IMG/VR virus record: IMGVR_UViG_2531839662_000040
Location: 1-45,525 of that record
DNA: 45,525 nucleotides
Reading direction: 5' to 3' (one strand)
From: a virus
Taxonomy: Duplodnaviria > Heunggongvirae > Uroviricota > Caudoviricetes
A model generated the notes under the pieces. That model searched no databases. It was not told the DNA's origin and saw only the letters and a list, made by a program, of their open reading frames with translations. This document shows, piece after piece, positions 21,985 through 43,525 of this stretch. A program made the translations under genes and the position numbers. How positions within the stretch are numbered: position 1 is the stretch's first letter; every line of letters starts with the position of its first letter.

Positions 21985-22207
21985 GGCGGCTCACGGGATG
22001 AAGTTCCCGATGGAGGATAACGCCCGGAAATACATCACCACGGAAGCGGTGACCGTTGAGAATACCGCTTATTACCGGCGCGCCGTTCAGGACGGTGACC
22101 TGATTCTGGTGAAGGATGAACCTGAAGCCACCGAGGTGGCTGAACAGGACGCCGTGCAGGTAAAAGCGAAGGTGAAGAAAGAGAAACAGGTGGGCTCCGA
22201 TGAGTGA
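21965..22207 (+). CDS. Mu gp38-like small protein (DUF2635-like)
   Basis: 80 aa immediately upstream of tail sheath. Confidence 0.45.
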   Translation: MNKMKVKAAHGMKFPMEDNARKYITTEAVTVENTAYYRRAVQDGDLILVKDEPEATEVAEQDAVQVKAKVKKEKQVGSDE

Positions 22208-23621
22208 AATTCAGTTTGACACCATTTCGGGCGGCATCCGTAAGCCCGGTGTGCATTTTGAGTTTAATACCCGACTGGCCGTTAACACGCTGCCGGGTAA
22301 TGAACAGCGTGTTCTGGTGATTGGTCCGATGCTGTCAGGCGGCACCGCCACGCCCCTGAATGCCGTCTCCGTGTATTCCGAAGACGAAGCGGATTTGTAT
22401 TTCGGGGCCGGTTCGCTGGCCGCTGCAATGGCGCGCGCGGCCATTAATGCCAACAGCTATCTGCAACTGGATGTTATCGGTATTGCAGACAGTGGCGCAG
22501 GAAAGGCGGCAACCGGCGCAGTTACCGTCAGTGGCACGGCAACCAGCAGCGGCACGCTGTCGGTATGGGTTGCCGGTGAGCAGGTCACGGTGGATGTGGA
22601 AACCGGTGATGAACCGTCGAAAATCATTCCGGCACTGGTGGAAGCAATGACGCAGACGCCATCGCTTCTGGTCACGGGGGAATACAAATCGGAAGCCTCT
22701 CAGCTGACGGTGACCACCCGGACCAAAGGGGCCTGGGGGGATGATATCACCCTGTCAGCGTCCACCACGGCAGGCGGTCTGACCGTGAGCGCCACGCCGA
22801 TGGCGAACGGCGAAATGGATCCGGATATTCAGCCCGCACTGGATGCGGTCTTTGCCGCCGGTCACAACATTCTGATTTGTCCGTTCAGTACCACGCCAGC
22901 CCTTGCTGCCCTGAAGCAGCATCTGGAGAAAACCGGGAACGCGATGGAACAGCGCGGCGCGATTGGCTGTGCGGGCTGGACGGGTAGTCTCGGAAACGGG
23001 ATCACCCTGGCAGCCGGTGTGAACAGCGGGCGCGTGTCCGTCCCCTGGTATCGCGGCTCCGTGAAGCTGCCAGCGGTGCTGGCTGCCATCTACGGCGCTG
23101 TGATGGCGGGCGAGGAAGACCCGGCGCGTCCGCTGAACTCGCTGGCGCTGTCCGGGCTGGATGTGGTCGCCATGTCACAGCGTGAAAGCCGTAACGAGCA
23201 GGAAAACGCCCTGCATAACGGCCTGACACCGGTTGAGGTTGGCCCGGGTAATACGGTGCAGATTGTGCGTGCAGTCAGTACCTACACGGTGAACGCGCAG
23301 GGCGTGGCTGATGTCTCGCTACTGGATATCACGTCCATCAGAACGCTGGATTACACCCGTAAGGCGTGCCGCGAACGTATCAGCCTCCGCTTCCCGCGTG
23401 AAAAACTCAGCACCCGCACTATCGCAAAAGTGGAAAGTGAACTGTATGACGTGCTGATCAAGCTGGAGGAAGCGGAAATTCTGGAGAACGTGGAAGCGAA
23501 CAAGGCAAAGCTGCGCGTTCAGCGAAACGGGAAAGATGCAAACCGTCTCGACTGCGTGGTTCCGGCGGATGTGGTTAACGGCCTGCACGTGTTTGCCGGT
23601 CGCATCGACATGATTTTGTAA
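22200..23621 (+). CDS. tail sheath protein (Mu L-like)
   Basis: 473 aa; followed by tube, chaperone and tape measure. Confidence 0.8.
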   Translation: MSEIQFDTISGGIRKPGVHFEFNTRLAVNTLPGNEQRVLVIGPMLSGGTATPLNAVSVYSEDEADLYFGAGSLAAAMARAAINANSYLQLDVIGIADSGAGKAATGAVTVSGTATSSGTLSVWVAGEQVTVDVETGDEPSKIIPALVEAMTQTPSLLVTGEYKSEASQLTVTTRTKGAWGDDITLSASTTAGGLTVSATPMANGEMDPDIQPALDAVFAAGHNILICPFSTTPALAALKQHLEKTGNAMEQRGAIGCAGWTGSLGNGITLAAGVNSGRVSVPWYRGSVKLPAVLAAIYGAVMAGEEDPARPLNSLALSGLDVVAMSQRESRNEQENALHNGLTPVEVGPGNTVQIVRAVSTYTVNAQGVADVSLLDITSIRTLDYTRKACRERISLRFPREKLSTRTIAKVESELYDVLIKLEEAEILENVEANKAKLRVQRNGKDANRLDCVVPADVVNGLHVFAGRIDMIL

Positions 23622-23633
23622 GGAGCGCGGTAA

Positions 23634-24008
23634 ATGTCCATTAAAGAATATGTCGGCTCGATTGTGCTGGAGGTGGACAGCCAGGAAATCGAGATCACCG
23701 ACTTCGATGTTCAGATCAACACCGGACGAAAGCTGGTCAAGACCATGAACAAAACCGGCAGGGCAAAAGGCTTTGCCCGTGGCATTGCCACTTACGATAT
23801 TTCAGTTTCGGCGGTTATCCCTGATACCAACGAGCCGGACTGGGAAAATCTGGAAGGTGTGAAAATCTCAATTTATCCGCTCAGCAACAGCGGTAAGCGC
23901 ACCTCCTATCTGGACTGCTTCACTGTTGAAGTGGGTGAGAAATACACCGTCGACAGTGAAGCGAAAATTGATATCAAAATGGCTGCACTCAGGAAGGTGA
24001 CAGGATGA
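23634..24008 (+). CDS. tail tube protein (Mu M-like)
   Basis: 124 aa directly after sheath. Confidence 0.7.
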   Translation: MSIKEYVGSIVLEVDSQEIEITDFDVQINTGRKLVKTMNKTGRAKGFARGIATYDISVSAVIPDTNEPDWENLEGVKISIYPLSNSGKRTSYLDCFTVEVGEKYTVDSEAKIDIKMAALRKVTG

Positions 24009-41762: not shown

Positions 41763-42253
41763 ACATGGTGGATTTGCTGGGCTGGGGCGTAAACCGGCTT
41801 GAACGTGAAGCATGGGATGCGGTGGGTTCATTAACGGATGTCGCCTCCCGCGTCATGCTGTCGTTTGGTGAGTTTGAATTCAGTATTGATACGGCAGCCT
41901 ATAACGCCATGAAGCGCACTATGGAATGGCGATGGGATGAACAGCAGCTTATCGGAAAAAACGACCTGCTGCAGTATACCGGTAAGGGGGCCAGAACAAT
42001 AACCCTTGAAGGCATGGTGCATGCGGGATTTCGTGACGGTGTGGGAATGGATGCCCTTGATACGCTGGTTCAGATGGTGGATGACAATCCGGCCCCGCAG
42101 TTACTGGTCTCAAGTACAGGCGATGTGATGGGGTATTTCGTGGCAACCGCCTATTCAGATAACACCACGTCCTTTCTTCCCGGCGGGGCGCCAAAGAACA
42201 AAACGTTCACACTGGAGCTGAAATACTATGGCGAAAAACTGGCGGACCACTGA
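41759..42253 (+). CDS. tail protein (P2 gpU-like)
   Basis: 164 aa by synteny (T then U) and size. Confidence 0.65.
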   Translation: MNMVDLLGWGVNRLEREAWDAVGSLTDVASRVMLSFGEFEFSIDTAAYNAMKRTMEWRWDEQQLIGKNDLLQYTGKGARTITLEGMVHAGFRDGVGMDALDTLVQMVDDNPAPQLLVSSTGDVMGYFVATAYSDNTTSFLPGGAPKNKTFTLELKYYGEKLADH

Positions 42254-42446
42254 CGGCGATATGCTGGATGACATCTGTCAGAGACACTATGGCAGTGCCG
42301 GGCTTAACCAGTCACTGGCGGCGGTACTGGAAGCCAATCCCGGGCTGGCTGACCTTGGTCCGGTCTATCCGTCGGGAGTGGAAATCGTGTTGCCGGACTG
42401 GGTATATGAACCGGAAGTGAAGGAGACGTTTCAGTTATGGGACTGA
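42228..42446 (+). CDS. tail protein X-like (LysM-like small tail protein)
   Basis: 72 aa between U-like and D-like genes, as in P2-like tailocin clusters. Confidence 0.6.
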   Translation: MAKNWRTTDGDMLDDICQRHYGSAGLNQSLAAVLEANPGLADLGPVYPSGVEIVLPDWVYEPEVKETFQLWD

Positions 42447-43525
42447 ATGAATATCAGCCGGATTTCAGCCTGACAGCGGAAGGCCAGGATATCACGAAGG
42501 CCCTGAAACGGGGGCTGGCTGAACTGCGATATACCGATAATGGTGCAGCCACAAAGCGGTCCGATGAACTGATGATAACGCTGTTCAGCGAGACGCTGGC
42601 GTTACCACCGAAAGGCGCGGTGCTAACGCTGGGACTGGGGTTCAACGGAAATCTGGTCAATAAAGGCAGTTTTACCGTCTGTCAGGTGGCAAGCGGTGGT
42701 CCTCCCCGCCGGCTCACCATTTATGCCACCGCAGCCCCCATGAATGCGTCAAAACATGGCGCAGACGTGACCGCACTGAAAACCCGGGCTTTCAGCGATA
42801 TCACACTGGGCGACCTGGTGAACACCATCGCCACTGAAAATAATCTGGTGGCGCGCGTCTCATCGGTGCTTGCTGATATTCATATCCCGTGGGTGATGCA
42901 GTCATCAGAATCTGATGCTGCCCTCTTGTCCCGCATTGCAGGTATGTACGGCGCCACCAGTAAACCGACCAATGGCTACTGGTTATTTCTGGAATACGGG
43001 GCATCACAGAGTACGGGGGGCAGAAATGCGCCTGAGATAACCATTACACCGGGTATGGTATCAGACTGGGATTATCGTGAAGGTGAGCGACAGGGCGCTG
43101 CGGGTGGTGCGAAGGGGGATAAAAAGAGCGGGAAAGTTGGGGTCCGGTATTTTGATGCCCGTGACGGACGCACACGTGAAGTTAAAGTTGACGTGGAGTC
43201 AACAGATAAGCGGCATCCGTTTACCCAGCCTGACCAGGGCACCGCAAAACACTGTGCAGAGTCGAAGGTTAAACGTGTGCAGAAAGTCGGACGCCAGATG
43301 ACGATAACGTTGCCCTGCAGGCCGGAACTGCTGAAAGCAGGGGCGGAGATGCGTTTTGTCACGCAGGGATTTGGTGTGCGTGAGGACCATCACTGGCAGG
43401 CTGAGTCTGTGGAGTTTTCACTGGTACCGGGACAGGGATTTACGCTGAATCTGTCACTGACCACGGATATTTCTGCAAAGGGGAAAGCCAGTGGCAAGAA
43501 AAAAGGCGTCAATTATTTTGGTTAA
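42437..43525 (+). CDS. tail protein (P2 gpD-like)
   Basis: 362 aa by synteny after U and X. Confidence 0.7.
   Translation: MGLNEYQPDFSLTAEGQDITKALKRGLAELRYTDNGAATKRSDELMITLFSETLALPPKGAVLTLGLGFNGNLVNKGSFTVCQVASGGPPRRLTIYATAAPMNASKHGADVTALKTRAFSDITLGDLVNTIATENNLVARVSSVLADIHIPWVMQSSESDAALLSRIAGMYGATSKPTNGYWLFLEYGASQSTGGRNAPEITITPGMVSDWDYREGERQGAAGGAKGDKKSGKVGVRYFDARDGRTREVKVDVESTDKRHPFTQPDQGTAKHCAESKVKRVQKVGRQMTITLPCRPELLKAGAEMRFVTQGFGVREDHHWQAESVEFSLVPGQGFTLNLSLTTDISAKGKASGKKKGVNYFG

What the first reader, a model, noticed from the sequence alone, without database searches (positions are those of the whole stretch)
22200..43525. Two complete contractile-tail assembly sets on one strand: Mu-type followed by P2-type
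The window carries a full Mu-type tail (sheath 22200, tube 23634, chaperone 24005, tape measure 24551, N, P, baseplate 29371-32083, fibre and Tfa to 33641). After 4 kb of fibre cassettes comes a second, unrelated P2-type set (sheath 37635, tube 39107, E/E' 39684, tape measure 40104, U, X, D to 43525). The P2-type set has no baseplate genes of its own inside the window. It could be a remnant of a P2-like prophage fused by fibre-gene recombination, part of a tailocin-like cluster, or a captured module borrowing the Mu-type baseplate. An X-like gene between U and D is the layout I recall from R-type-pyocin-like clusters rather than P2 itself.
Basis: partly seen in the sequence, partly recalled or inferred. 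Interest (0 to 1): 0.7.

Follow-up and report, generated by a model that had tools for sequence, protein, structure and literature searches.

The report
Mu-like prophage nested inside another prophage
The two contractile-tail gene sets belong to two different prophages: a 37-kb Mu-like transposable phage has jumped into the tail-fibre gene of a resident prophage (lambda-type head, P2-type tail) in E. coli UMNF18 and split that prophage's tail genes, which is an ordinary and already documented kind of event.

Summary
Window 22200-33641 encodes a full Mu-type tail, and 37635-43525 encodes P2-type sheath, tube, E/E', tape measure, U, X and D. The two sets are not one system. The window is E. coli UMNF18 chromosome. 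Positions 1-35954 are the right 36 kb of a 37,085-bp Mu-like transposable prophage with c, ner, MuA and MuB at its left end. It is inserted in tail-fibre gene H of a lambdoid prophage that sits between potC and potB. The "missing" P2-type baseplate genes V, W, J, I and the first 92 codons of H lie directly upstream of the Mu left end, just outside the window. Removing the Mu-like element in silico and joining the flanks gives 1000 bp that match strain ETEC1738 at 100% in one piece. ETEC1738 carries the same prophage uninterrupted at the same site: head, V W J I H G FI FII E E' T U X D, fibre, potB. Five independent insertions of this Mu-like lineage share the same termini. Four have perfect 5-bp target duplications; UMNF18 has 4 of 5. 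Mu-like phages inside other prophages are already reported in E. coli. Verdict: nested prophages, not a tailocin, a recombination fusion or a borrowed baseplate. Low interest.

The parts
1..35954 (+). Right 35,954 bp of a 37,085-bp Mu-like transposable prophage. Its left end and c repressor lie 1,129 bp upstream of window position 1. In the window: ner (1-234), MuA (234-2276), MuB (2295-3188), early genes, lysis, terminase, portal, head and tail.
   Evidence: Pfam hits for Mu transposase and HTH_35/Ner. RefSeq annotation of flanks. Ends defined by comparison with five insertions.
22200..33641 (+). Mu-type contractile-tail module: sheath, tube, chaperone, tape measure, N, P/gp44, gp45, gp46, gp47, gp48, fibre, Tfa.
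33687..35872 (+). Second fibre pair of the Mu-like phage: phage_tail_N fibre (33687-35303) plus DUF4376 protein (35300-35872). It lies inside the Mu right end, and relatives inserted at other sites have it too.
   Evidence: layouts of relatives.
35873..35954 (+). Right end of the Mu-like element, ending ...CGCGAAGTTACA-3'. It carries three TTCTGGAC repeats (35880 +, 35908 -, 35930 -), presumed transposase-binding sites.
   Evidence: The same terminus is found in four other genomes.
35955..35959 (+). Right copy of the target-site duplication, GATGA. The left copy, GATGT, is outside the window at RefSeq 1364153-1364157.
   Evidence: The empty site in ETEC1738 reads GGGGATGATCAGC.
35956..37032 (+). 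3' part of tail-fibre gene H of the host prophage, corresponding to residues 92-449. The ATG inside the duplicated target acts as an accidental start codon.
   Evidence: PF12571 profile positions 95-149 only. Intact H in ETEC1738 matches positions 7-149. Reconstructed H is 449 aa and differs at 3 residues from ETEC1738 H.
37035..37580 (+). Tail-fibre assembly protein (G-like) of the host prophage, followed by a terminator-like hairpin at 37599-37616.
   Evidence: PF02413, phrog_136, terminator scan.
37635..39110 (+). P2-type tail sheath (FI).
   Evidence: Pfam. Pyocin R2 sheath PA0622, E 7e-53. 62% aa identity to Hafnia phage yong2 sheath.
39107..39625 (+). P2-type tail tube (FII).
   Evidence: PF04985, 3e-22.
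39684..40123 (+). Tail assembly chaperones E (39684-39986) and E+E'. The -1 slip site T_TTT_TTG is at 39944-39950 and the E' frame runs to 40123.
   Evidence: PF10109; sequence read; PGAP small ORF.
40104..41762 (+). Tape measure protein.
   Evidence: phrog_3654, 5e-215, plus tape-measure phrogs.
41765..42253 (+). gpU-like tail protein.
   Evidence: PF06995, 1e-27.
42228..42446 (+). Tail protein X (LysM-like).
   Evidence: PF05489, 2e-19. PDB 2ltf and pyocin PA0627.
42437..43525 (+). gpD-like baseplate hub / late control protein.
   Evidence: phrog_52, 1e-94. Pyocin R2 chain 6u5h_C, 5e-18.
43550..45525 (+). Terminal fibre pair of the host prophage: phage_tail_N fibre (43550-44953) plus DUF4376 protein (44953-45525). 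potB starts 228 bp after the window end.
   Evidence: Identical layout in ETEC1738.

Best explanation
These are nested prophages. E. coli UMNF18 carries a lambdoid prophage of about 41 kb between potC and potB. Its layout is int, xis, early genes, Q, tRNAs, lysis genes, a lambda/21-type head, and a P2-type contractile tail in the order V W J I H G | FI FII E E' T U X D | fibre, DUF4376.

A 37,085-bp Mu-like transposable phage integrated by DDE transposition into codon 92 of fibre gene H, in the same orientation as the host genes. Its own complete Mu-type tail module therefore sits between the host's V-W-J-I-H' genes (upstream, outside the window) and 'H-G-FI...D (downstream, inside the window). 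The two tail sets are parts of two separate virions and have no functional link.

Shown here: the identity of the genes, the Mu ends, the target duplication, the exact empty site, and the same host prophage uninterrupted at the same locus in another strain.

Inferred: the host prophage is now defective. Its H gene is split. Its late operon is interrupted by 37 kb. A second insertion of about 34 kb sits between Q and the lysis genes. The portal gene is annotated as frameshifted. The composite of about 112 kb is far too large for a lambda-type head. The Mu-like prophage looks intact and may still be inducible.
For: 1. Window 21000-45525 is 100% identical to UMNF18 NZ_AGTD01000001.1 at 1386288-1410813.
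2. Upstream annotation shows terminase, portal, protease, decoration protein, capsid, then V, W, J, I and a 117-aa fibre N-terminus. Next come the c repressor (minus strand), ner, MuA and MuB. Pfam and PHROG hits confirm W, J, I, V and the fibre N-terminus.
3. Downstream of the window is potB-potA-pepT. Upstream of the composite are potD-potC, then int/xis.
4. Joining 500 bp of left flank to 500 bp of right flank with the element removed matches ETEC1738 at 1000/1000 in one piece. 68 genomes have the junction intact.
5. ETEC1738 has the same prophage at potB, uninterrupted, and many of its proteins carry identical WP accessions. The UMNF18 flanks align to it at 99.95% and 99.47%, and the alignments overlap by the 4 bp GATG.
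6. The H halves rejoin in frame to 449 aa. The PF12571 domain is split between the two halves.
7. The same termini, 5'-GTGGGG...TTACA-3', occur in STEC316, STEC346, Z1323CEC0014 and AH19B041 at four unrelated sites. Each has a perfect 5-bp duplication: GTCGT, AGTAT, AATCA, ATATT.
8. Only 1 of 5,426 complete E. coli genomes has the two tail sets adjacent.
9. Mu-like phages inserted in other prophages are reported in STEC: 6 of 10 were inside mobile elements (PMC10132054).
Against: - The target duplication in UMNF18 matches at only 4 of 5 positions (GATGT versus GATGA).
- The arrangement is seen in a single genome, which is an older assembly. The window differs from the RefSeq record by two 1-nt gaps.
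- Nothing about expression, inducibility or particle production was tested.
- The att core of the host prophage was not defined.
Confidence: 0.95

Rival explanations
1. A remnant of a P2-like prophage was fused to the Mu-like prophage by homologous recombination between tail-fibre genes.
For: Both elements end in a similar fibre pair (phage_tail_N plus DUF4376). The N-terminal 170 aa or so are highly similar and there are DNA stretches of 77-83% identity. Fibre genes are known recombination hot spots.
Against: The boundary is not inside a shared fibre sequence. It falls at a defined Mu terminus with transposase-site repeats and a target duplication. The other half of the interrupted gene lies at the opposite Mu end. 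Removing the element restores a sequence found 100% intact in ETEC1738.
Confidence: 0.02
2. The P2-type genes are an R-type-pyocin-like tailocin cluster, that is, a domesticated headless tail.
For: The U-X-D order matches R-type pyocins. The best solved relatives of sheath, X and D are pyocin R2 proteins.
Against: In both UMNF18 and ETEC1738 the tail genes are contiguous with a full lambda/21-type packaging and head module, Q, lysis genes, and int/xis. The isolated lambdoid myovirus Citrobacter phage Chris1 has the same U-X-D order, so that order is not specific to tailocins.
Confidence: 0.01
3. The P2-type half-module is a captured accessory set that works with the Mu-type baseplate or is co-expressed with the Mu late genes.
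For: It has the same orientation as the Mu tail genes. Only about 80 bp separate the last Mu gene from the Mu end, and no strong terminator was predicted in 35873-35954, so read-through is conceivable.
Against: Its own baseplate genes exist at the other side of the insertion. Relatives of the Mu-like phage at four other sites lack any such set. The two sheaths share no detectable pairwise similarity. The adjacency is unique to one genome.
Confidence: 0.02
4. The adjacency is an assembly artefact that joins two prophages located elsewhere in the genome.
For: The assembly is old and contains probable single-base errors (3 gaps against ETEC1738 in 13 kb; 2 gaps between the window and RefSeq).
Against: Both Mu junctions fall in the two halves of one gene, with a shared 4-5 bp duplication exactly as transposition predicts. 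A chance misjoin would not produce this.
Confidence: 0.01

Closest known systems
Mu-like transposable phages inserted in resident prophages of E. coli (for example in Stx phages of CC119 STEC; Sp18-like phages; PMC10132054; GenBank LC727881 'region of the inserted Bacteriophage Mu-like phage')
   Same: A Mu-like phage of about 37 kb with c/ner/A/B at the left end and a Mu-type contractile tail, inserted at variable sites, often inside other mobile elements. Here a relative also sits in the holin gene of an Stx2e prophage in STEC316.
   Different: It is a different lineage. MuA is only 44.8% identical to the Sp18-like elements and at most 48.7% identical to any isolated phage in the collection. 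The right end carries two co-oriented fibre sets and no annotated invertase (gin) or mom. The left terminus reads 5'-GTGGGG rather than the TG of Mu, as inferred from the duplications.
Citrobacter phage Chris1 and Hafnia phage yong2 (lambdoid myoviruses with a P2-type tail)
   Same: Lambdoid early genes, a lambda-type terminase, portal and protease, and a P2-type tail with U-X-D order. Sheath identity is 60-62% at the protein level.
   Different: Chris1 has the tail gene order V, FI, FII, E, T, U, X, D, W, J, I, H plus an invertible fibre segment. The E. coli prophage has V W J I H G before FI. There is no DNA-level similarity in the tail region.
Bacteriophage P2 tail module
   Same: Homologues of V, W, J, I, H, G, FI, FII, E/E+E' (with the T_TTT_TTG slip site), T, U and D, in P2 order.
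   Different: X lies between U and D; from memory it sits near the lysis genes in P2. The head, packaging, regulation and integration genes are lambdoid, not P2-like.
R-type pyocin (Pseudomonas aeruginosa PA0615-PA0628)
   Same: The order sheath, tube, chaperone, tape measure, U, X, D. The best solved structural relatives of sheath, X and D are pyocin R2 proteins.
   Different: The E. coli genes are part of a phage genome with head, packaging, integration and Q genes, so this is not a tailocin.

Membership tests
Mu-like transposable phage | DDE transposase MuA and ATPase MuB next to c repressor and ner at the left end | tested here: met
   PF09299, PF02316 and rve hits on 234-2276; AAA_22/TniB on 2295-3188; HTH_35 (Ner) on 1-234. 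CI-type repressor on the minus strand upstream.
Mu-like transposable phage | Defined termini with repeated transposase-binding sites | tested here: met
   Three TTCTGGAC repeats lie within 58 bp of the right end, with matching repeats at the left end. The termini are conserved in five genomes. Binding itself was not tested.
Mu-like transposable phage | 5-bp target-site duplication and insertion at many unrelated sites | tested here: met
   Perfect 5-bp duplications in four relatives, in a phage holin gene, a PAAR-domain toxin gene, a site between rarD and yigF, and tkt. UMNF18 has 4 of 5 (GATGT/GATGA), and its empty site was verified.
Mu-like transposable phage | Mu-type head and tail genes (DUF935 portal, gpT capsid, N/DNA circularisation, gp44-48 baseplate) | tested here: met
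   Annotation of relatives.
P2-type contractile tail module | FI sheath, FII tube, E with -1 frameshift E+E', T, U, D | tested here: met
P2-type contractile tail module | Baseplate genes V, W, J, I and fibre genes H, G | tested here: met
   V, W, J, I and H' lie directly upstream of the Mu left end, outside the window. 'H and G are at 35956-37580.
P2-like phage (Peduoviridae) as a whole | P2-type capsid and packaging genes (Q P O N M L) and P2-type regulation | tested here: not met
   The head and packaging genes are lambda/21-type at 75-78% DNA identity. A Q antiterminator, RusA and lambda-type int/xis are present.
R-type tailocin | Tail and lysis genes without head, packaging, replication or integration genes | tested here: not met
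   The tail genes are contiguous with a full head and packaging module, Q, and int/xis.
R-type tailocin | U-X-D gene order | tested here: met
   The order is also present in the true phage Chris1, so it is not diagnostic.
Lambdoid prophage | int/xis at one end, Q antiterminator upstream of lysis genes, lambda-type Nu1/A/W/B/C/D/E head genes | tested here: met

The most novel reading that the evidence does not exclude
The split P2-type tail module might still be expressed. This could happen by read-through from the co-oriented Mu late operon for 'H-G and FI-D, and from the host Q-dependent transcript for V-W-J-I. Induction of the Mu-like phage would then also yield fibre-H-less P2-type tails, which are tailocin-like particles, or mixed assemblies in the same cell.
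Probability: 0.04. Interest if true: 0.4.

Novelty: new member of a known kind. Interest (0 to 1): 0.12.

Why it matters
It matters little beyond annotation. It shows that two adjacent, co-oriented tail modules can simply be a phage-in-phage insertion, and that a seemingly baseplate-less tail set should be checked across the ends of a neighbouring transposable prophage before a tailocin or a hybrid system is proposed. It also documents that this Mu-like lineage is mobile in E. coli, with five different insertion sites, and that it inactivates resident prophages and chromosomal genes.

Tried and rejected
- phiP27 as a model for the host prophage. It shares only the fibre genes at the DNA level, and its own tail is Mu-type. 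Rejected.
- NCBIfam scan of the P2-type proteins. It gave only sub-threshold hits or none and was uninformative. Pfam, PHROGs and PDB were used instead.
- A 4-bp duplication model with TGT...ACA termini. It fitted the first three insertions. I dropped it after Z1323CEC0014 and AH19B041, because a 5-bp duplication with a 5'-G terminus explains four of five insertions perfectly.
- Search by eye for the att core of the host prophage at the potC and potB junctions. No clear shared core was found and I did not pursue it.
- Literature search for a description of this UMNF18 locus. Nothing relevant was found.
- Several fetched loci never appeared in the scripting folder, so some junctions were read with get_sequence instead.
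Full report
**1. Observation**

- Pfam identifies the Mu-type tail at 22200-33641: sheath, tape measure, DNA-circularisation protein N, the gp44-like hub, gp45, gp46, gp47/Baseplate_J, gp48, fibre and Tfa.
- PHROGs adds the tube (23634-24008) and the chaperone (24005-24388).
- The second set at 37635-43525 is P2-type. It comprises sheath, FII tube, chaperone E, tape measure (phrog_3654 plus tape-measure families), U, X and D.
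- E carries the canonical P2 -1 slip site T_TTT_TTG at 39944-39950, and the E' frame ends at 40123.
- The best solved relatives of sheath, X and D are pyocin R2 proteins.
- The two sheaths show no pairwise BLASTP similarity.

**2. Where the window comes from**

Window 21000-45525 is 100% identical to the E. coli UMNF18 chromosome, NZ_AGTD01000001.1, at 1386288-1410813. Only 1 of 5,426 complete E. coli genomes holds at least 80% of that stretch in one place. The rest of the window also matches UMNF18, apart from two 1-nt gaps. Downstream of the window, potB starts after 228 bp, followed by potA and pepT.

**3. The missing baseplate**

Directly upstream of the window, RefSeq annotates the following, in order:

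- terminase small and large subunits, portal, S49 protease, decoration protein, major capsid protein, FI, head-tail joining protein and a tail completion protein;
- baseplate V, W (GPW_gp25), J (Baseplate_J), I (Tail_P2_I) and a 117-aa 'phage tail protein';
- a CI-type repressor on the minus strand, then ner, MuA and MuB.

Pfam and PHROGs confirm W, J, I and V. The short protein matches only the first part of the tail-collar fibre N-terminal domain PF12571. The ORF at window 35956-37032 matches only profile positions 95-149 of the same domain. One fibre gene has therefore been cut in two by whatever lies in between.

**4. What lies in between is a Mu-like prophage with defined ends**

- The left junction reads ...CTGGGGATGT|GTGGGGTGGTGATCAATTCTGGACTGAG....
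- The right junction reads ...CAGTCCAGAAAAAAACGCGAAGTTACA|GATGATCAGC... at window 35954/35955.
- Three TTCTGGAC repeats lie within 58 bp of the right end, out of only five matches to the degenerate pattern TTCTGGRC in the whole window. Corresponding repeats lie at the left end.
- In RefSeq coordinates the element spans 1364158-1401242, which is 37,085 bp.

**5. Empty site**

I joined 500 bp ending ...CTGGGGATG to 500 bp starting ATCAGCGAC... and searched the E. coli genomes.

- Strain ETEC1738 matches 1000/1000 in a single piece, and 68 genomes hold the junction intact.
- ETEC1738 carries the same prophage at the same chromosomal place. Its order is Q, tRNAs, lysis genes, a lambda-type head, V W J I H (449 aa) G FI FII E E' T U X D, fibre, DUF4376, then potB. 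Many protein accessions are identical to those of UMNF18.
- The UMNF18 flanks align to it at 99.95% over 13.2 kb on the left and 99.47% over 13.8 kb on the right. The two alignments overlap by GATG.
- The two H halves rejoin in frame to 449 aa, with 3 differences from ETEC1738 H.

**6. Transposition signature**

Related Mu-like prophages at four other sites share the same termini. Each is flanked by a perfect 5-bp duplication.

| Strain | Insertion site | Duplication |
|---|---|---|
| STEC316 | holin gene of an Stx2e prophage | GTCGT |
| STEC346 | a PAAR-domain toxin gene | AGTAT |
| Z1323CEC0014 | between rarD and yigF | AATCA |
| AH19B041 | tkt | ATATT |

In UMNF18 the copies are GATGT and GATGA. 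The empty site shows that the target was GATGA, so the innermost base of the left copy differs.

**7. The host prophage**

- Its head and packaging genes are 75-78% identical in DNA to those of lambda and phage 21.
- It has int and xis next to potC, plus RusA and Q.
- It is therefore a lambdoid phage with a P2-type tail, not a P2-like phage and not a tailocin.
- The nearest isolated phages by sheath protein are Hafnia phage yong2 (62%) and Citrobacter phage Chris1 (60.5%). Chris1 is a lambdoid myovirus that also has the U-X-D order, so that order is not specific to pyocins.
- In UMNF18 the host prophage has also been hit by an integrative island of about 34 kb in its own tRNA-Ile gene, and its portal gene is annotated as frameshifted.
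- The composite between potC and potB is about 112.6 kb. The host prophage is therefore very probably defective. This is inference and was not tested.

**8. Mechanism and rivals**

The best explanation is insertion of a Mu-like phage by transposition into gene H of a resident prophage, in the same orientation by chance. Each rival fails against the evidence above:

- *Fibre-gene recombination.* The boundary falls at a Mu terminus, and an exact empty site exists.
- *Tailocin.* Head, Q and int genes are contiguous with the tail genes.
- *Borrowed baseplate.* The module's own V-W-J-I genes are present, and relatives of the Mu-like phage lack any P2-type set.
- *Misassembly.* Both junctions lie in the two halves of one gene and share a duplication.

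One residual idea that I could not test is that transcription reads through from the Mu late genes into the P2-type genes. No strong terminator was predicted between 35872 and 35954. Terminator-like hairpins do lie at 33649-33666 and 37599-37616.

**9. Comparison with what is known, and novelty**

Mu-like phages inside other prophages are documented in E. coli. In 13 closed CC119 STEC genomes, 6 of 10 Mu-like phages were inside mobile elements, including Stx phages (PMC10132054). GenBank records of Stx phages carry the label 'region of the inserted Bacteriophage Mu-like phage'.

The Mu-like lineage here is distinct from those elements, with MuA 44.8% identical. It has no close isolated relative; the best is 48.7%. 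It is nevertheless present, at 80% coverage or more of window 4700-21100 (early, lysis and head region), in 53 of 5,426 complete E. coli genomes.

I found no paper describing this UMNF18 locus. It is a new instance of a known kind of event, and its interest is low.

Noticed in passing
Outside the window: UMNF18 RefSeq about 1312910-1347132 (L010 42835-end, L004 1-29180): A CP4-like integrative island of about 34 kb is inserted in the tRNA-Ile(CAU) gene carried by the host prophage itself. It carries cbtA/yeeU, an antirestriction gene, the Cah autotransporter, IS debris, a methyltransferase-helicase-nuclease trio, and a tyrosine integrase at 1345619-1346935. The 3' 47 nt of the tRNA are duplicated at the far end. 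Together with the Mu-like phage, this makes a three-element nest of about 112.6 kb between potC and potB.
   Followed up: partly
Window 35955-35959, and RefSeq 1364153-1364158 (left junction, outside the window): The target duplication in UMNF18 is imperfect: GATGT on the left, GATGA on the right, and GATGA in the empty site. The duplications of five insertions place the left terminus at 5'-GTGGGG, not at a 5'-TG as in Mu, while the right end is ...ACA-3'. The odd base could be a later mutation or a repair footprint. This is unresolved.
   Followed up: partly
L007 2289-2366 and 40247-40507 (STEC316); L008 1379-2527 and 39912 onward (STEC346); L012 1484-3346 and 40876-41022 (AH19B041): Relatives of the Mu-like phage interrupt the holin gene of an Stx2e-converting prophage, a PAAR-domain toxin gene next to vgrG, and a transketolase gene. 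The lineage is or was recently mobile, and it has hit another prophage at least twice.
   Followed up: yes
Window 33687-35872 versus 43550-45525: Both prophages end in the same kind of fibre pair, a phage_tail_N fibre plus a DUF4376 protein. The N-terminal 170 aa or so are nearly identical and the receptor-binding parts are diverged (38% identity overall). The DNA is 77-83% identical in two stretches. phiP27 has the same pair at its right end. These direct repeats flank the 'H-to-D segment and could mediate its deletion.
   Followed up: partly
Window 32083-33066: PGAP annotates the Mu-type fibre as an N-terminally truncated pseudogene (32332-33066) in UMNF18 and in several relatives. Yet an uninterrupted 327-aa ORF starts at the stop of gp48 and matches fibre families from residue 3 onward (phrog_1858). 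This is probably an annotation artefact rather than a real truncation.
   Followed up: partly
Window 4700-21100: The window differs from RefSeq NZ_AGTD01000001.1 by two single-base gaps: 16,401 query bases span 16,403 record bases. The coordinate offset is therefore +1365286 at the window start and +1365288 from 21000 onward. These are probably homopolymer differences between assembly versions. I did not locate them.
   Followed up: partly
Window 1-35954: This Mu-like lineage has no close isolated relative. The best MuA identity in 50,697 phage records is 48.7%, and there is no DNA match above 2% coverage for window 1-25000. Yet it occurs in at least 53 of 5,426 complete E. coli genomes. No invertase (gin) or mom is annotated at its right end, and the fibre genes there are all co-oriented on the + strand.
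   Followed up: partly
Outside the window: RefSeq 1354730-1356252 (L005 3730-5252): The portal gene of the host prophage is annotated as frameshifted in UMNF18 but is intact in ETEC1738. It could be a real inactivating mutation or a single-base assembly error; there are 3 gaps against ETEC1738 in 13 kb.
   Followed up: no
Window 33649-33666 and 37599-37616: Strong terminator-like hairpins followed by T runs lie after the Mu-type Tfa gene and after the host prophage's G-like Tfa gene. The second divides the P2-type tail genes into V-to-G and FI-to-D blocks.
   Followed up: no
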